This document shows, in pieces, positions 99 to 3,816 of a DNA stretch of 8,243 bases. Position numbers and translations under genes: made by a program. Under the pieces are notes generated by a model, which worked only from the letters and a program-made list of their open reading frames with translations, ran no database searches and was not told the origin of the DNA. Within the stretch, counting starts at the first letter, position 1; every line of letters begins with the position of its first letter. Origin of the DNA: a virus (Duplodnaviria; Heunggongvirae; Uroviricota; Caudoviricetes); IMG/VR virus record IMGVR_UViG_2778261464_000003, positions 1 to 8,243 of that record. The stretch is one strand, 5' to 3'.

Positions 99-722
99 CT
101 ATGCGGACTCGGAAGGAAGTCCAATCATCTTATTCAAATCTTCTACCCGTAAAGCAGGAAGTGCTGTACTTGCTTTGTCTGCTTCTTTTGGTAGCAATTC
201 TTTGCTTTCAGGCCAAACTTCAATAAGTCGCTTAACTGTTGTGACTGAGTTCAAAGCAGCCCATACATTTGATTCGATATCCTTTTTCTTGGCTTCAAGT
301 TTTTGTTGCAATGCGCAGATTTCATCAAACCTTTTTGTTATTTCGTGTTCTGCATCAAACATGCATTTATCTTTGGTTGGAGTAGGGAGCAATATATCTT
401 CGCCGTTGCCGTCTTTCCCATATGAATGCCATCCAACCCTTCTGCCAGATACAGTCAGATAAATTGAAGTAGAACGAACATCGTATGAGTAAAATGAACA
501 TCCCATCTTTTCAAGTTCTTCACTTATAGCTACTAACCTGGATGATAACTGATCCACTTCCTCAGTTTTCTTTTTACCGCCAAACGCAATAACTCTGGCG
601 TCAAGTGCAAGCTGGTTCTTTAACTTTGTTACTTCTTCAAGTTCAGTGAAAACCCCAGACTTAATTAAAGCGTTACGAGCGATTTTCTCTTTCATTCTCG
701 TAGTTAAGCGGATTGATGACAT
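99..722 (-). CDS. Hypothetical early-left (pL operon) protein, 207 aa, charged with coiled-coil-like stretches, no transmembrane segment
   Basis: Long ORF on the same strand as N and immediately downstream of it. The track ORF runs 99-782, but the internal ATG at 722 (MSSIRLTTRMKEK...) is preceded by GAGAGG with 7-nt spacing, whereas the 782 start has no RBS. Stop TAG at 99-101. No family recognised by eye. Confidence 0.6.
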   Translation of the reverse strand: MSSIRLTTRMKEKIARNALIKSGVFTELEEVTKLKNQLALDARVIAFGGKKKTEEVDQLSSRLVAISEELEKMGCSFYSYDVRSTSIYLTVSGRRVGWHSYGKDGNGEDILLPTPTKDKCMFDAEHEITKRFDEICALQQKLEAKKKDIESNVWAALNSVTTVKRLIEVWPESKELLPKEADKASTALPALRVEDLNKMIGLPSESA

Positions 723-783
723 ATTAATTCCTCTCAAATAAGTGGTTTGCTGCCTAATTTTATTTTCTGGCGACCAACACAAG

Positions 784-1056
784 TCATCTTGCTGTCAGTT
801 GTTTGGATTTCCGGTATCCTGCCGCGTAAAGAGCTACGTTCGGAAGACAAGTTGAACCTTCATATTTTCTGGTCAGCGTTGTCAGTGTTATTACTTCTGC
901 TCTCATTGCTGGTTTGCGTTTGCATTGCAAGACCACTCGTGAAGGGGTTGGCCTGTGTAGTTTGTCGGAGCTAATCGCCTCCTGACTTTGCAGGTTTGCT
1001 CGACGAGCTCTACGGCGAGAAGCTGCAGTGCCTTTAAATTCTGTTTTTCTGGACAT
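784..1056 (-). CDS. N: N-like transcription antiterminator (P22 gene 24 type), 90 aa
   Basis: Arginine-rich motif near the N-terminus (GTAASRRRARRANLQ). The C-terminal sequence LPNVALYAAGYRKSKQLTAR closely resembles the P22 gp24 C-terminus as I recall it. Start ATG at 1056 is preceded by GGGAGG with 5-nt spacing; the track start at 1140 has no RBS. Sits downstream of the pL/nutL candidates. Confidence 0.7.
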   Translation of the reverse strand: MSRKTEFKGTAASRRRARRANLQSQEAISSDKLHRPTPSRVVLQCKRKPAMRAEVITLTTLTRKYEGSTCLPNVALYAAGYRKSKQLTAR

Positions 1057-1154
1057 AGATTCCTCCCGAATAAACTCTGGTGATGCAATCTCGAAGCTCC
1101 TCCTGAGACGGTTGCTTCGGCATTGCATCCCACAGCTCATGTGGTTGGGTGATC

Positions 1155-1275: not shown

Positions 1276-1464
1276 TACGATTTGTTCTAAAATAGGGTGA
1301 TTTTTTATAACACTTTGTATTTAATAGTGTTGTTTTTTAGCGTGGGTGTATCGCCTCGGCGATGTAAGGAGAGATCAGAATTGCGTGGTTTAGTGAGTTG
1401 TATCTATTTATTTTTCAATAAATACATTTGGTTATGTGTCTTTAGGTGGGGCGTGAGGCAAAGA

Positions 1465-1495
1465 AAACCCGGCGCGGTGGCCGGGTTTATTTATT
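1465..1495 (-). terminator. Intrinsic terminator (timm-like) ending the cI-cassette leftward operon; bidirectional in form
   Basis: 9-bp stem AAACCCGGC (1465-1473) / GCCGGGTTT (1480-1488) with loop GCGGTG. A T-run follows on both strands (minus RNA: hairpin then UUUUCUUUG; plus: UUUAUUUAUU). It directly abuts the stop codon (1491-1493) of the 216-aa gene. Confidence 0.6.
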
Positions 1496-2141
1496 GCTTA
1501 GGAGCTTGTTGTGATGACGATTGGTTAGTTGGAGCGCTCGTTAATGGTTGCTGTGTCGGTACCTGTATTATAATTGGAGCCGGGCTGGTTACTGATGGTG
1601 ACTTGTCATTGCCGGAGATAATCCAACTTGAGGCTAACATCACGCCAGACAGAATCACAGTAACTAAAGTCAAGCCAACGGCCATCGCCCACTGAGTCGT
1701 TGTAAGTCCCGTTTTCAAACCGCCGATTTCACCTTTAATTTCAGCAATACCTCTCTCAATAGAAGAAAATTGCTGAGTATAATAGGTTTTAAAGTCAGCT
1801 GATTCGCGACGCATTTCCGCAGCAATAGACTCTACCTCTGATTTGTTTTGTGAAAGCTTTGCGTCAAGTTCTTCTCTGGACATTCCGCTCACGCTTACCT
1901 CCAGGGTATCACTCTTCATCGCTACATCTTCCTTACTTGGGCGCAAACCCGTTTCGTCCATGGCGTATGAAACTCTATTTGATACCTTAGCATCAATACC
2001 AATACTTTGGTACTGAGATGGATCCCCATAAGGAGAAACGGTTGTCGCTGCTAGGGTTGCACTAACTATAATACTTGGAAGAACTGATGATGTTGTTCCT
2101 GAGGTAGGTTGAACTGAAGAAACTGGCTTCAGTCTTTCCAT
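1491..2141 (-). CDS. Cassette gene 3: 216-aa predicted membrane-anchored coiled-coil protein with a Ser/Thr/Pro/Gln-rich C-terminal tail
   Basis: ORF directly followed by the terminator. N-terminal hydrophobic segment (VLPSIIVSATLAATTV), a charged central region (EELDAKLSQNKSEVESIAAEMRRESADFK...), one clear transmembrane helix (WAMAVGLTLVTVILSGVMLASSWII), then a low-complexity tail. The start at 2141 overlaps the upstream gene stop by 13 nt; a weak AGGGA RBS lies about 9 nt upstream. No family recognised. Confidence 0.6.
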   Translation of the reverse strand: MERLKPVSSVQPTSGTTSSVLPSIIVSATLAATTVSPYGDPSQYQSIGIDAKVSNRVSYAMDETGLRPSKEDVAMKSDTLEVSVSGMSREELDAKLSQNKSEVESIAAEMRRESADFKTYYTQQFSSIERGIAEIKGEIGGLKTGLTTTQWAMAVGLTLVTVILSGVMLASSWIISGNDKSPSVTSPAPIIIQVPTQQPLTSAPTNQSSSQQAPKQ

Positions 2142-2395
2142 AGCCCATTATCCCTGAGAGCTACCTGTAATGATTTTACTAATGCAACAGCTTGATCCGG
2201 GCTCATTGAGACTGACATGTTAGGGGTCAACTCAACTTTTACTTGGAAGCTATTCTTTCCTTGCTCATCAGACTGCATGTGATGCTCAAATTCATGGCGG
2301 TAAAAAGTAATGATTGTTTCAGCACGATCAGGCGTAATAAGAACTGATGTGGCGGTCATGTGCTGAGGTATGATTTTAATAGTGTTATCTGACAT
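2129..2395 (-). CDS. Cassette gene 2: 88-aa hypothetical soluble protein (the track ORF extends to 2536)
   Basis: The ATG at 2395 (MSDNTIKIIPQ...) is preceded by AAAAAGGA with about 6-nt spacing. In-frame ATGs further upstream (2431, 2437, 2536) lack an RBS. Stop at 2129-2131 overlaps the start of gene 3. The start is uncertain; the protein could be up to 135 aa. Confidence 0.5.
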   Translation of the reverse strand: MSDNTIKIIPQHMTATSVLITPDRAETIITFYRHEFEHHMQSDEQGKNSFQVKVELTPNMSVSMSPDQAVALVKSLQVALRDNGLWKD

Positions 2396-2587
2396 AAGTA
2401 TCCTTTTTGTTTCCTTAGTATTTTTTTGCATTGACATCAGAAATAGCGAATCCACAAGAGTATGAGTAAAGCTAATCAGTTTAGTGATACGGTGACTATT
2501 AAAGTGGTAAACCACATCAAAGCTCGCAGAGTGCATACCAGGCTGTCACACATGACAAAGTAACGAGGATGCCTGATCTCATAGCGC

Positions 2588-2743
2588 TCAAAGAGACATG
2601 CCGATAATGGCATTAACCACGCATGACGCCATAAACACGCCGCCAACGATGAAGCTGGCTTGGTTCTTCCTGGTAGCGCCAAGAGTCAACAGAACCACTG
2701 AAAGGGCAAAAAAAGGTATCGCGATTATGCTGAACGTGTTCAT
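2588..2743 (-). CDS. Cassette gene 1: 51-aa small membrane protein with two predicted helices (not in the supplied ORF track)
   Basis: Manual translation of the - strand gives MNTFSIIAIPFFALSVVLLTLGATRKNQASFIVGGVFMASCVVNAIIGMSL. A GAGG RBS lies about 8 nt upstream of the ATG at 2743. Starts 78 nt downstream of the cI stop with no terminator between. Two hydrophobic stretches separated by RKNQ. Confidence 0.45.
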   Translation of the reverse strand: MNTFSIIAIPFFALSVVLLTLGATRKNQASFIVGGVFMASCVVNAIIGMSL

Positions 2744-2820
2744 GTTGACCTCAACTTATTTCGATTCTCCATCACCCTTAATCCGCCGCCCCATGTGTTT
2801 GTTGTGATCCGTTGCTGGCC

Positions 2821-3480
2821 TTAACCAAACGTCTCTTCAGGCCACTGGCTGGCGATAACTTTCCCCACAACGGAACAACTCTCATTGCATGGGATCATTG
2901 GGTACTGTGGGTTTAGTGGTTGTAAAAACACCTGACCGCTATCCCTGATCAGTTTCTTGAAGGTAAACTCATCACCCCCAAGTCTGGCTATGCAGAAATC
3001 ACCTGGCTCAACAGCCTGCTCAGGGTCAACCAGAATTAACATCCCGTCAGGAAAACTAGGTTTGGATCCTGTTGGCGCGGTCATGGAATTACCTTCAACC
3101 TCAAGCCAGAATGCAGAATCACTGGCTTTTTTGGTTGTGCTTACCCATCTCTCCGCATCACCTTTGGTAAAGGTTCTGAGTTCTGGAGAGAACATCCCAG
3201 CCTGAACATGAGAAAAAACAGGGTACTCATATTGTTTTTTAACTGGGGCCGATGAGTATTCGCCAACAGGTGAAAATGTCCCGTCGTGGTTGAATGATAT
3301 GTTATCAATACCAAGGTATTTAAACACCACACCAATATCACTAAGAGATGGATGACGAGATCCGCGCAACCAGTGTCCAATCCCACCCTGCGTCATACCT
3401 AGCTCTTCGGCTAACTTCTCTTGAGTTATGCCGAGCTCTTTCATTCTGGATCTAGCCAGTTCATACCATTTCATTTTCAT
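2821..3480 (-). CDS. cI: cI-type prophage repressor: HTH N-terminal domain plus LexA/S24-like autocleaving C-terminal domain (lambda-type), 219 aa
   Basis: The C-terminal ~130 aa ([30 protein letters not shown]...GNSMT...FKKLIRD...[12 protein letters not shown]) match lambda cI residues about 100-236 as I recall them, including the Ala-Gly cleavage site and Ser/Lys dyad context. The N-terminal ~80 aa are a different HTH domain ([22 protein letters not shown]). Start at 3480 (MKMKWYEL) has AAGGA upstream; the track start at 3522 is probably an upstream extension. Confidence 0.9.
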
Positions 3481-3515
3481 GTCCTTATTATTACGCTCTG
3501 TATTGCAACCATCCA

Positions 3516-3564
3516 TGCACAATGTGTATTTTTACTTGCATTCAAAAAGTACATATTGTATTTT
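3516..3564. promoter_or_regulatory. OR/pR region: two operator-like dyads (3516-3530, 3548-3562) overlapping a pR-like promoter (-35 TTTACT 3531-3536, -10 TATTGT 3554-3559)
   Basis: TGCACAATGTGTATT and AGTACATATTGTATT fit the same pattern as the OL palindrome. The rightward -35/-10 pair has 17-bp spacing and lies about 30 nt upstream of the cro start. pRM (leftward) must lie here too but could not be pinned down. Confidence 0.5.
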
Positions 3565-3590
3565 TTCTTCATGGTTACTATGGAGGGCAT

Positions 3591-3806
3591 ATGAGCAACC
3601 TACGAAAATATCGAGAGTCACTGAATATCTCTCAAACAACACTTGCTAAGGCAGTTGGATGCACACAGGGAGCTATCGGACATTGGGAATCTGGTCGTCG
3701 CTTCCCAGACCTTAAAACATGCCGTGCTCTTGTTGCGTGTCTAAACAAGTTAGGCGCAAAAGTCAGTCTTGATGACGTGTTCCCGCCGGAACACAAAGCC
3801 GCTTAA
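3591..3806 (+). CDS. cro: Cro-like HTH repressor, 71 aa
   Basis: Divergent from cI across the operator region. GGAGGG RBS at 3582-3587. The HTH segment (ISQTTLAKAVGCTQGAIGHWESGRRFP) has a recognition helix nearly identical to the cI N-terminal domain ([15 protein letters not shown]), as expected for proteins sharing operators. The track ORF from 3522 is an upstream extension. Confidence 0.8.
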   Translation: MSNLRKYRESLNISQTTLAKAVGCTQGAIGHWESGRRFPDLKTCRALVACLNKLGAKVSLDDVFPPEHKAA

Positions 3807-3816
3807 TAAGCGGATC

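What the first reader, a model, noticed from the sequence alone, without database searches (positions are those of the whole stretch)
1491..2743. Three-gene cassette of unknown function in the slot where lambda carries rexA-rexB
Between the cI stop (2821) and the timm-like terminator (1465-1495) sit three co-oriented genes with no terminator after cI: a 51-aa two-helix membrane peptide, an 88-aa soluble protein, and a 216-aa membrane-anchored coiled-coil protein. In lambda the same position holds the RexAB abortive-infection system, and in other lambdoid phages it holds other exclusion genes (for example stk in 933W). None of the three proteins resembles RexA, RexB or any family I can name. 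Being transcribed with cI means expression in the lysogen, which is the signature of lysogenic-conversion or exclusion genes. This is the best candidate in the window for an undescribed system.
Basis: partly seen in the sequence, partly recalled or inferred. Interest (0 to 1): 0.8.

Follow-up and report, generated by a model that had tools for sequence, protein, structure and literature searches.

The report
Repressor-linked membrane gene pair of HK97
The three small genes after the prophage repressor are real. They are two separate mobile units of unknown function: a tiny membrane peptide gene, and a widespread two-gene pair (phage HK97 gp49/gp48) that takes the place of lambda's RexAB exclusion genes and is probably an uncharacterised anti-phage or lysogen-fitness module.

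Summary
**Observation: confirmed.** On the minus strand, between the cI stop (2821) and a tImm-type terminator (1465-1488), lie three ORFs:
- a 51-aa two-helix peptide (2588-2743);
- an 88-aa soluble protein (2129-2395);
- a 216-aa protein (1491-2141) with a disordered N-terminus, a long helix, one C-terminal membrane helix and a Pro/Gln tail.

All three evolve under purifying selection.

**Identity.** The block is 99-100% identical to phage HK97 genes 49 and 48 plus an ORF left unannotated in HK97. These are known "hypothetical" genes, not new sequence.

**Structure of the cassette.** It is two modules, not one trio. The 51-aa gene travels alone, in other prophages with different cargo and in chromosomes. 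The 49/48 pair is a conserved, translationally coupled unit.

**The gp48 family.**
- It has about 200 representative clusters.
- In 35 loci every member has an abutting upstream partner, of at least three unrelated classes.
- The partner and the gp48 N-terminal region swap together, against a conserved helix-plus-anchor.
- 28 of 35 pairs follow a CI-type repressor.
- In HK244 and HK542, which carry lambda-type immunity, a pair sits exactly where lambda has rexAB.

**Homology and function.** I found no homology to any Pfam, PADLOC or PDB family. Function is untested. My best guess is a lysogen-expressed exclusion or abortive-infection module.

The parts
2821..3480 (-). Context: the cI repressor gene (HTH_3 + Peptidase_S24). 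The ORF is open up to a TTG at 3522, but the likely start is the ATG at 3480 or 3474. Its N-terminal domain differs from HK97/lambda-type cI; its C-terminal domain is shared with them.
   Evidence: Peptidase_S24 E = 6e-29, HTH_3 E = 2e-10. One search gives the HK97 cI sequence for comparison.
2744..2820 (-). A 77-nt spacer between the cI stop and the 51-aa gene. It has no terminator-like hairpin. A GAGG ribosome-binding site lies before the ATG at 2743.
2588..2743 (-). Module 1: gene for a 51-aa two-helix membrane peptide (MNTFSIIAIPFF...TRKNQ...VGGVFMAS). The positively charged loop is probably cytoplasmic. It is an independent, mobile small-protein gene.
   Evidence: conserved family, purifying selection. 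(shared on its own with L019/L020). (chromosomal copies).
2396..2587 (-). A 192-nt untranslated spacer between the peptide gene and gene 49. It is part of the 1.39-kb block shared with HK225, but it is not shared with L019/L020 or with Klebsiella. No Rfam family and no consensus promoter was found in it.
2129..2395 (-). Module 2a: gene 49. It encodes an 88-aa soluble protein of the class A partner family, with predicted beta strands followed by a C-terminal helix. Its stop overlaps the gene 48 start by 13 nt, which suggests translational coupling.
   Evidence: (phrog_26809).
1878..2141 (-). Module 2b, gene 48 residues 1-88. This is a variable, low-complexity, predicted disordered cytoplasmic N-terminal region. 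It is inherited together with the upstream partner.
   Evidence: pLDDT below 50; co-swapping.
1701..1877 (-). Gene 48 residues 89-147. This is the conserved long helix (REELDAKLxxNKAEVxxVAxxMRxEMAxxR...). Nearly invariant positions are E91, A94, L96, N99, K100, A101, E102, M114, A115 and R118.
   Evidence: (helix 89-142, block pLDDT 60-90).
1611..1694 (-). Gene 48 residues 150-177. This is the single C-terminal transmembrane helix, preceded by the conserved Q150-W151. The inferred topology is N-in, C-out.
1491..1610 (-). Gene 48 residues 178-216 plus the stop codon. This is a Pro/Gln/Ser-rich tail carrying the PIIIQVP motif, presumably periplasmic. It is dispensable in the family, because some members end at the membrane helix.
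   Evidence: (L043 and L044 lack a tail).
1465..1488 (-). Intrinsic terminator of tImm type. It has a 9-bp GC-rich stem and a U-rich tail, and lies immediately after the gene 48 stop. It acts as a conserved mosaic junction shared with HK244, L005, L006 and L019-L021.

Best explanation
**What it is.** The region is lysogen-expressed accessory cargo in the cI-tImm slot of a lambdoid prophage. It is read through from the repressor promoter and stopped at the tImm-type hairpin.

It holds two independent modules:
1. A 51-aa two-helix inner-membrane peptide, a stand-alone small-protein gene of unknown role.
2. The translationally coupled pair gp49-gp48.

**Proposed mechanism for the pair.** I propose a two-component, membrane-associated anti-phage exclusion or abortive-infection module.
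- gp48 is anchored in the inner membrane by its C-terminal helix.
- Its conserved cytoplasmic helix, together with the anchor, is the constant 'effector'. It would act by membrane perturbation, or by capturing a conserved target at the membrane.
- The variable N-terminal region of gp48, together with the small cytoplasmic partner gp49, forms the exchangeable specificity or control unit. This unit would keep the effector silent until an infecting phage is sensed.

**Shown here**
- The genes are real.
- The pair is a conserved unit.
- The architecture is modular.
- The pair is linked to repressor genes and to other moron slots.
- It is unrelated to known families.

**Inferred, not shown**
- Co-transcription with cI.
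- Membrane topology.
- A gp49-gp48 interaction.
- Any anti-phage activity or mechanism.
For: **Slot**
- The order cI, three genes, terminator, with no terminator after cI, is in the sequence.
- In HK244 and HK542, which carry lambda-type immunity, a gp48-family pair (HK24405/HK24404; E = 5.5e-37 against the family profile) lies between cI and the annotated Timm.
- The same immunity type as this window occurs in 776 of 5426 complete E. coli genomes. The block occurs in only 52.
- Other cargo in this slot includes a BRO protein and a DUF1828 pair that matches the PADLOC candidate PDC-M24B.
- Owen et al. 2020 (PMC7067206) describe the repressor-to-N region as a common site of accessory loci such as rexAB and bstA.

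**Pair as a unit**
- The genes overlap by 13 nt here and in Klebsiella.
- An abutting co-oriented partner is present in 35 of 35 loci.
- The partner is gp49-like in 24 of 35 loci. There are two or more other partner classes.

**Modularity**
- In 23 locus pairs the helix-plus-anchor part is 60-93% identical, while the partner and the N-terminal region are 0-9% identical.
- The converse also occurs: in L037 against L044 the partner is 99% identical, the N-region 96% and the C-part 36%.

**Context**
- A co-oriented CI-type repressor lies upstream in 28 of 35 loci.
- The remaining loci sit near Arc-type repressors or among tail genes, which are also typical moron positions.

**Site of action.** Members without any periplasmic tail (L043, L044) place the conserved function on the cytoplasmic or membrane side.

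**Family size.** 202 representative clusters at E <= 1e-3, and 107 at E <= 1e-10.
Against: - There is no experimental or transcriptomic evidence for expression in lysogens, or for any phage-exclusion phenotype. I found no paper on gp48 or gp49 function.
- No member matches a validated defence family. PADLOC gives only scattered weak hits of the coiled-coil type.
- All loci found are prophage or viral contexts. None was seen in a chromosomal defence island.
- The structure models are low confidence (pLDDT 44 and 52). No fold-based inference is possible.
- The helix does not show a clean heptad pattern.
- 'Variable partner plus constant anchor' would equally fit a membrane tether or an addiction module.
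- Slot occupancy is only circumstantial, because non-defence cargo also occurs there.
Confidence: 0.45

Rival explanations
1. Superinfection exclusion at the DNA-entry step. gp48 sits in the inner membrane and its periplasmic Pro/Gln tail (PIIIQVP) blocks the injection machinery or the inner-membrane receptor of incoming siphophages, as HK97 gp15, P22 SieA or T4 Imm do. gp49, and perhaps the 51-aa peptide, would be helpers.
For: - gp48 has a single-pass membrane topology, with a conserved PIIIQVP-like tail in many members.
- The 51-aa peptide is a small inner-membrane protein, as many Sie proteins are.
- HK97 prophage already uses an inner-membrane Sie protein, gp15 (PMC3594210).
- One homologue lies beside an Arc/Ant region.
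Against: - Several family members end at the membrane helix with no periplasmic tail, and the Klebsiella tail is unrelated.
- The most conserved part is the cytoplasmic helix.
- Sie proteins, to my knowledge, do not need a cytoplasmic partner or a 150-residue cytoplasmic domain.
- The variability lies in the cytoplasmic N-region and partner, not in the exposed tail.
Confidence: 0.15
2. Lysogenic-conversion cargo unrelated to phage defence. A membrane-anchored helical protein and its partner would change host envelope physiology, stress tolerance or host interaction, in the way lambda bor and lom are fitness factors.
For: - The pair sits in moron-type positions, after repressors or among tail genes.
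- It has no similarity to defence proteins.
- Chromosomal homologues of the 51-aa peptide sit among ordinary small-protein genes.
Against: - Rapid swapping of partner classes and N-regions against a constant effector is more typical of conflict systems than of physiological factors.
- The family was found here only in Enterobacterales prophages and viral contigs, which suggests phage-centred selection.
Confidence: 0.2
3. A function in the phage's own lysis-lysogeny control or prophage maintenance. For example, the pair could be a membrane-tethered sensor that modulates induction, or a toxin-antitoxin-like addiction pair (gp48 toxic, gp49 antidote) that stabilises the prophage.
For: - The pair is tightly and repeatedly adjacent to repressor genes of many types.
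- A translationally coupled small soluble protein next to a membrane protein resembles antitoxin-toxin gene order.
Against: - An identical gp49/gp48 follows three unrelated or differently specific repressors: HK97 lambda-type cI, this window's hybrid cI, and the HK225 repressor. A repressor-specific regulator is therefore unlikely.
- The same immunity type mostly lacks the pair (776 against 52 genomes). The pair is therefore dispensable for lysogeny.
- Some pairs lie far from any repressor.
Confidence: 0.12

Closest known systems
Phage HK97 gp49 and gp48 (AAF31128, AAF31127; PHROGs 26809 and 5820), and the same block in HK225 and Lambdavirus PDP110P1
   Same: The DNA is 99-100% identical across 1457-2845. 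The gene order, the 13-nt overlap and the terminator are the same.
   Different: These entries are only 'hypothetical protein' or 'unknown function'. HK97 does not annotate the 51-aa ORF, and HK225 annotates opposite-strand ORFs there. The window's repressor has a different N-terminal domain from that of HK97.
Lambda RexA-RexB
   Same: - Same slot: between cI and tImm, co-oriented with cI. HK244 and HK542 carry a gp48-family pair there, next to a lambda-type cI.
- Both are two-gene cassettes combining a soluble and a membrane protein.
- Rex is expressed in lysogens and excludes other phages (PMC7067206).
   Different: - There is no sequence similarity.
- From memory, RexB is a multi-pass membrane protein and RexA is about 280 aa. 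Here the membrane protein has a single C-terminal helix and a long cytoplasmic helix, and the soluble partner is only 88 aa.
- The function of the present pair is untested.
HK244 HK24405/HK24404 and HK542 homologues (immunity-region records EF120457 and EF120458)
   Same: The membrane protein belongs to the gp48 family (E = 5.5e-37). Its partner abuts with a 4-nt overlap. The position between cI and Timm is the same, and the terminator is almost identical.
   Different: The partner is class C (144 aa, beta-rich) and is not detectably related to gp49. The N-terminal region of the membrane protein differs. There is no 51-aa gene.
Other cargo of the repressor-to-N slot: BstA of Salmonella phage BTP1, and Stk of 933W
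   Same: They are encoded directly downstream of the repressor. BstA is transcribed from the cI promoter and is an abortive-infection defence (PMC7067206; PMC8585504, listed).
   Different: They are unrelated proteins.
C-terminally anchored helical proteins (Pfam CCDC90-like/DUF1640; E. coli ElaB/YqjD type)
   Same: The overall architecture is shared: a cytoplasmic helical region followed by one C-terminal membrane helix. Weak sub-threshold Pfam hits to CCDC90-like occur in 18 of 60 family members.
   Different: HK97 gp48 scores 12.6 bits against a 33.5-bit cutoff. The hits cover only the generic helix-plus-membrane-helix part and sit alongside other coiled-coil 'noise' families (Baculo_PEP_C, NPV_P10). 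The comparison with ElaB/YqjD is from memory only and was not tested.

Membership tests
HK97 gp48 / gp49 (PHROG 5820 / 26809) | Sequence identity to the deposited HK97 proteins, and a match to the PHROG profiles | tested here: met
   The DNA is 99.1% identical to AF069529. phrog_5820 matches at E = 9.6e-69 and phrog_26809 at E = 2.7e-62. WP_015980176 is annotated over the matching ORF in E. coli.
Lambda RexAB | Sequence homology to RexA and RexB | tested here: not met
   No Pfam, NCBIfam or PADLOC hit to any Rex model for any of the three proteins.
Lambda RexAB | Position between cI and tImm, co-oriented with cI | tested here: met
   HK244 and HK542 carry the family next to a lambda-type cI, pRM and Timm.
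Lambda RexAB | Multi-pass membrane RexB plus a large cytoplasmic RexA (architecture recalled from memory) | tested here: not met
   gp48 has one hydrophobic segment (150-177), and gp49 is 88 aa with none.
Lambda RexAB | Expression in the lysogen and exclusion of other phages (for example T4 rII) | not testable with these tools
   This needs RNA-seq and plating assays.
Known anti-phage defence systems (PADLOC-DB v2.0) | A significant match of a component to a defence-protein model | tested here: not met
   No hits for the three window proteins. Among 60 family members there are only scattered weak hits to coiled-coil parts of LmuB, JetC, ZorA and LeoA; each family was matched by at most 4 of 60 members, best E = 9e-6. 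No partner class gave a hit that amounts to a match. The database dates from 2023.
Pfam CCDC90-like (DUF1640) | A score above the Pfam gathering threshold | tested here: not met
   12.6 bits against a 33.5-bit cutoff for gp48. 18 of 60 relatives match at E <= 0.01, best 2.4e-7, alongside other generic coiled-coil families.
Superinfection-exclusion membrane proteins (HK97 gp15, P22 SieA, T4 Imm) | Homology to a characterised Sie protein, and a block of DNA entry | tested here: inconclusive
   No PHROG or Pfam family with a Sie annotation was hit. I did not compare directly with gp15 or SieA sequences, and the entry block cannot be tested here.
Toxin-antitoxin / addiction pair | One product is toxic and is neutralised by the adjacent product | not testable with these tools
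   Only the gene order and coupling are compatible. No TA family was hit.

The most novel reading that the evidence does not exclude
The gp48 family defines a previously unrecognised, widespread class of repressor-linked prophage immune modules in Enterobacterales.
- A constant membrane effector consists of a conserved cytoplasmic helix anchored by a C-terminal membrane helix.
- It is armed by interchangeable specificity units. Each unit is a small partner protein, of at least three unrelated classes, plus the matching N-terminal adaptor region of the effector.
- The system is transcribed with the repressor, so that only lysogens are protected.

HK97, a standard laboratory phage, would then carry an undescribed abortive-infection or exclusion system in place of RexAB.
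Probability: 0.35. Interest if true: 0.8.

Novelty: new variant of a known kind. Interest (0 to 1): 0.6.

Why it matters
**Why the slot matters.** The slot after the prophage repressor is where lambda keeps RexAB, the first abortive-infection system ever described. Other phages keep BstA or Stk there.

**What this work adds.** HK97 and many other enterobacterial prophages fill that slot with a conserved but completely uncharacterised two-gene membrane module. Its architecture, a constant anchor-effector with exchangeable partner and adaptor, looks like a conflict system.

**If the pair is a defence system:**
- It adds a new family with a new effector type.
- It would be a ready-made natural series of specificity swaps.
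- It would help explain what HK97 lysogens are protected against beyond gp15.

**If it is not,** it is still a widespread lysogen-specific membrane factor worth knowing about.

**Testability.** The case is directly testable, because HK97, HK225, HK244 and HK542 are isolated E. coli phages.

**Annotation.** The work also corrects existing records. The 51-aa ORF is a real gene, and it is missed in HK97 and in most PGAP annotations.

Tried and rejected
**Structure prediction**
- AlphaFold2 on gp49 (3-sequence alignment) gave pLDDT 44. On gp48 (9 sequences) it gave pLDDT 52. Both are too poor for fold comparison.
- I therefore ran no fold search.

**Profile searches against PDB sequences**
- gp49 family (A2, A6): nothing meaningful.
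- gp48 family (A1): nothing meaningful.
- Class C partners (A7): nothing meaningful.

**Family databases**
- Pfam, NCBIfam and PADLOC gave no family. PHROGs matched only two families of unknown function (phrog_5820 and phrog_26809)..
- My recollection that gp49 resembles DUF3467 was not borne out: Pfam gave no hit to it at E <= 1.

**RNA.** Rfam found no RNA family in the window.

**Literature**
- I searched by gp48/gp49, by accession numbers, by HK97 lysogen and prophage, and by lambdoid defence hotspot. Nothing on function turned up.
- One search was badly designed and wasted.
- Cumby 2012 and Brenes & Laub 2025 are not held in the library, and Degnan 2007 did not turn up in a search.
- The DefensePredictor supplements do not list these accessions.

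**Genome scan.** With A1 it gave only 4 loci.

**Hypotheses considered**
- gp49 as a repressor-specific antirepressor held at the membrane: rejected, because identical gp49/gp48 follow different repressors.
- Opposite-strand ORFs as annotated in HK225 over the peptide gene: the antisense frame stays open in homologues, but it has a higher pN/pS than the sense frame in 9 of 10 pairs.
- The 135-aa and 102-aa extended starts for gene 49: rejected, because the Klebsiella homologue starts at the 88-aa position and the upstream DNA is unrelated.
Full report
**1. The observation**

The minus strand of the window carries four features in order:
- a cI-type repressor gene, whose stop occupies 2821-2823;
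- a 51-aa ORF (2588-2743);
- an 88-aa ORF (2129-2395);
- a 216-aa ORF (1491-2141).

A GC-rich hairpin with a U-rich tail follows at 1465-1488. The repressor has HTH_3 and Peptidase_S24 domains.

Transcription signals:
- The consensus scan finds no terminator-like site between cI and the 51-aa ORF.
- The hairpin after gene 48 folds at -19.1 kcal/mol, z = -3.6 against shuffles.
- It is almost base-for-base the terminator annotated as "Timm" in the immunity-region record of phage HK244.

Protein features:
- Hydropathy gives two hydrophobic segments in the peptide, none in the 88-aa protein and one (150-177) in the 216-aa protein.
- AlphaFold2 gives gp48 a confident helix at 89-142, a second helix at 148-177, and disorder elsewhere.

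So the description is accurate. The 88-aa start, rather than the 135-aa or 102-aa extensions, is supported by the ribosome-binding site and by the Klebsiella homologue. That homologue starts at the same residue, and its upstream DNA is unrelated.

**2. The ORFs are genes**

The 51-aa ORF is not annotated in HK97. In HK225 it is overlapped by opposite-strand calls. Even so:
- It has 36 clusters of homologues, mostly exactly 51 aa, at 67-100% identity, with an invariant MNTFSIIAIP start.
- Its synonymous sites are close to saturation while its non-synonymous sites are not (pS 0.65-0.84, pN 0.12-0.19).
- The sense frame has the lowest pN/pS of all six frames in 9 of 10 comparisons. The tenth is a tie with the codon-aligned antisense frame.
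- The antisense frame also stays open, so openness alone is not evidence.

gp49 and gp48 show the same signature of purifying selection against Klebsiella and Yersinia homologues.

**3. Identity**

Positions 1457-2845 are 99.1% identical to phage HK97, where the genes are gp48 and gp49. They are 99.8-99.9% identical to HK225 and Lambdavirus PDP110P1.
- The proteins fall into PHROGs 5820 and 26809, both of unknown function.
- The block occurs in 52 of 5426 complete E. coli genomes, always at 99% identity or more, and only within this block.
- The window itself is not HK97. Its repressor has a different N-terminal DNA-binding domain joined to the same C-terminal domain, and the region left of about 1400 differs as well.

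The same block therefore follows at least three repressors in E. coli:
- the 237-aa lambda-type cI of HK97, and of the four E. coli genomes I inspected;
- this window's hybrid cI;
- the unrelated HK225 repressor.

**4. Two modules, not a trio**

Pairwise DNA comparison shows what two Rac-like prophage contigs (L019, L020) share with the window. They share only the peptide gene (2576-2794, 92% identity) and the terminator. Between those two elements they carry a 331-aa gene instead of 49-48.

More distant peptide homologues lie in ordinary chromosomal neighbourhoods:
- after a DinI-like gene in Klebsiella;
- after a DUF6500 gene in Raoultella;
- near pmrD in Atlantibacter;
- near a RIO1 kinase gene in Lelliottia.

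Conversely, the 49-48 pair directly follows the repressor, with no peptide gene, in Klebsiella and Kosakonia. In Yersinia it follows two other small membrane-protein genes.

**5. The gp49-gp48 pair is a conserved, modular unit**

Family size and architecture:
- A word-indexed search found only 11 gp48 relatives.
- A full profile search found 202 representative clusters at E <= 1e-3 and 107 at E <= 1e-10. Nearly all of those listed are 90-280 aa.
- The family shares a variable N-terminal region, a conserved helix (REELDAKLxxNKAEVxxVAxxMRxEMAxxR) and a variable number of short helical repeats.
- These are followed by a Q-W motif, one membrane helix and usually a Pro-rich tail.
- Some members end at the membrane helix (L043, L044).

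The upstream partner, across 35 loci. These are the window, 26 IMG/VR contigs, 4 species genomes and 4 loci retrieved through individual homologues.
- Every gp48-like gene has a co-oriented ORF abutting or overlapping its start.
- 24 of these partners are gp49-like (local hmmsearch, E down to 1e-35).
- 4 form a second class. Three of them carry paired CxxC motifs, which suggests a zinc ribbon.
- 6 are a beta-rich class of about 145-158 aa, and one further partner (L049) may be a distant member.
- Classes A and C are not detectably related (hhalign probability 0.1%).

The key result is the swapping pattern:
- In 23 locus pairs, the helix-plus-anchor part of the membrane protein is 60-93% identical. 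In the same pairs both the partner and the N-terminal region are 0-9% identical.
- In the converse case (L037 against L044), the partner is 99% identical, the N-region 96% and the C-terminal part only 36%.
- Recombination therefore repeatedly breaks inside gene 48. The partner and the N-terminal region are inherited as one unit against an exchangeable helix-anchor unit.
- This is what one expects if the partner works with the N-terminal region. That step is inference.

**6. Context**
- A co-oriented CI-type repressor (HTH_3, with or without Peptidase_S24) lies upstream in 28 of 35 loci, usually 25-210 nt away. Pfam confirmed 13 of these in the IMG/VR loci, alongside the hits already on record for the others, and the remainder were found by phmmer against these.
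- Of the other seven loci, L004 lies beside an Arc-type repressor gene and an Ant-like gene, and L043 has an Arc-like gene upstream. L041 and L042 are flanked by a Big_2 gene and a DUF6246 gene that I read as tail genes. L024, L031 and L038 were not resolved.
- HK244 and HK542 are isolated coliphages whose records annotate a lambda-like repressor, pRM, pL and Timm. They carry a class C partner plus a gp48-family protein between cI and Timm, which is where lambda has rexA-rexB.
- The slot is polymorphic. The window's immunity type is present in 776 E. coli genomes, but the block is in only 52.
- E2348/69 has a BRO-family gene there. Nissle 1917 has a two-gene cassette whose DUF1828 protein matches the PADLOC candidate PDC-M24B.
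- Owen et al. 2020 describe the repressor-to-N region as a common site of accessory loci such as rexAB, and they show that bstA is transcribed from the cI promoter (PMC7067206).

**7. What the pair is not**
- The three window proteins, 60 gp48 relatives, 15 gp49 relatives and the other partner classes match no Pfam, NCBIfam or PADLOC family above threshold. They also match no PDB sequence profile.
- The recurrent weak hits (CCDC90-like, Baculo_PEP_C, NPV_P10, LmuB, JetC, ZorA) are generic helix matches.
- Rfam finds nothing in the window.
- I found no paper that addresses gp48 or gp49.

**8. Most likely mechanism**

Shown here:
- There are real genes in the repressor operon position.
- There is a coupled pair.
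- A tail-anchored protein has a conserved cytoplasmic helix.
- Specificity-like units (partner plus N-region) are exchangeable.
- The pair is restricted to moron slots of prophages.

Inferred:
- Transcription from PRM in the lysogen, as for lambda rexAB.
- N-in, C-out topology.
- Binding of gp49 to the gp48 N-terminal region.

My preferred model is a lysogen-expressed exclusion or abortive-infection module. The partner-plus-adaptor unit would sense or gate. The conserved helix and anchor would act at the inner membrane.

I put about 0.45 on an anti-phage role of this kind, and much less on any specific effector chemistry.

Three points favour action on the cytoplasmic or membrane side over a periplasmic block of injection:
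- some members have no periplasmic tail;
- the cytoplasmic helix is the most conserved part;
- the variability lies in cytoplasmic parts.

Rivals:
- Injection-blocking superinfection exclusion (0.15).
- Non-defence lysogenic conversion (0.2).
- Phage-internal regulation or an addiction module (0.12). A repressor-specific role is argued against because identical pairs follow different repressors. It is also argued against because the pair is dispensable within one immunity type.

The 51-aa peptide's role is open. It may be an independent small membrane factor.

**9. Novelty and score**

The sequence is already in GenBank as hypothetical genes of a model phage, and it is established that this slot carries exclusion cargo.

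Three things are new:
- the 51-aa gene is real and is a separate module;
- gp49/gp48 belong to a sizeable, repressor-linked family;
- that family has a constant helix-anchor and at least three exchangeable partner-adaptor units, and it literally replaces rexAB in phages of lambda-type immunity.

I rate this a new variant of a known kind: a repressor-linked two-component prophage cassette. It is unrelated to all described families, and its function is untested.

Interest is 0.6. This is a strong and easily testable lead, not a demonstrated system.

Noticed in passing
window 2821-3522 (cI), compared with L001 5419-6132: The window's repressor is a hybrid. Its C-terminal (S24) half is shared with HK97/lambda-type cI, but its N-terminal HTH domain is different. 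HK97's own cI reads like lambda cI ([27 protein letters not shown]...). The window's immunity type (3230-3810) occurs in 776 of 5426 complete E. coli genomes, including E2348/69, Nissle 1917 and UTI89.
   Followed up: partly
window 1457-1495; L053 1365-1390; L005, L006, L019-L021: The tImm-type terminator sequence is conserved across otherwise unrelated prophages with different cargo (84-96% identity over 24-44 nt). It behaves as a fixed junction of the slot, possibly a recombination linker.
   Followed up: partly
window 2396-2587: A 192-nt untranslated spacer lies between the peptide gene and gene 49. It contains a near-palindrome, TTGTCATGTGTGACA. The weak hairpin 2613-2598 sits at the end of the peptide gene. 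No promoter consensus and no Rfam family was found, so the spacer's role (internal promoter, attenuator or sRNA) is unknown.
   Followed up: no
L019/L020 5296-6291: In a Rac-like prophage, the same 51-aa gene and terminator flank a 331-aa gene with a weak SDH_protease (ClpP/SppA-like) hit instead of 49-48. This is another uncharacterised cargo of the slot, with no PADLOC hit.
   Followed up: partly
L052 2246-3552 (E. coli Nissle 1917 prophage): With the same immunity type as the window, the slot holds a hypothetical gene plus a DUF1828 gene. The DUF1828 protein matches the PADLOC candidate defence family PDC-M24B (E = 4.7e-10). A SieB gene lies further left.
   Followed up: partly
L011 3755-4183; L018 4738-5156: Chromosomal copies of the 51-aa gene are tightly coupled to an upstream small gene. 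In Klebsiella this is DinI-like with a 3-nt gap. In Raoultella it is DUF6500 with a 4-nt overlap. The Raoultella region also holds genes hitting the GhoT/OrtT, YncL and GnsAB families. This hints at a small-protein operon or a remnant moron.
   Followed up: no
L003 4746-5691 (Yersinia intermedia prophage): Between cI and the gp49-like gene lie two paralogous-looking ORFs of about 133 aa, each with an N-terminal membrane helix. They take the position that the 51-aa gene has in the window.
   Followed up: no
L057 2439-2705 equivalent (E. coli BA22372): In this genome the block is 2 nt shorter. PGAP calls only a truncated 51-aa product where gene 49 should be, so gene 49 appears frameshifted while gene 48 is intact.
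   Followed up: no
window 784-1140 and 99-782, minus strand: The ORF at 784-1140 contains an arginine-rich motif (GTAASRRRARRANLQ) typical of N antiterminators. It differs from HK97 N, so the window is mosaic to the left of the terminator. Downstream lies a 227-aa ORF of unknown function.
   Followed up: no
L004 5652-6501 (Xenorhabdus); L031; L033: Class B partners carry paired CxxC motifs, suggesting a zinc ribbon. In Xenorhabdus the pair lies next to an Arc/KilA-N antirepressor region and a RelB/ParE pair, not next to a CI-type repressor.
   Followed up: partly
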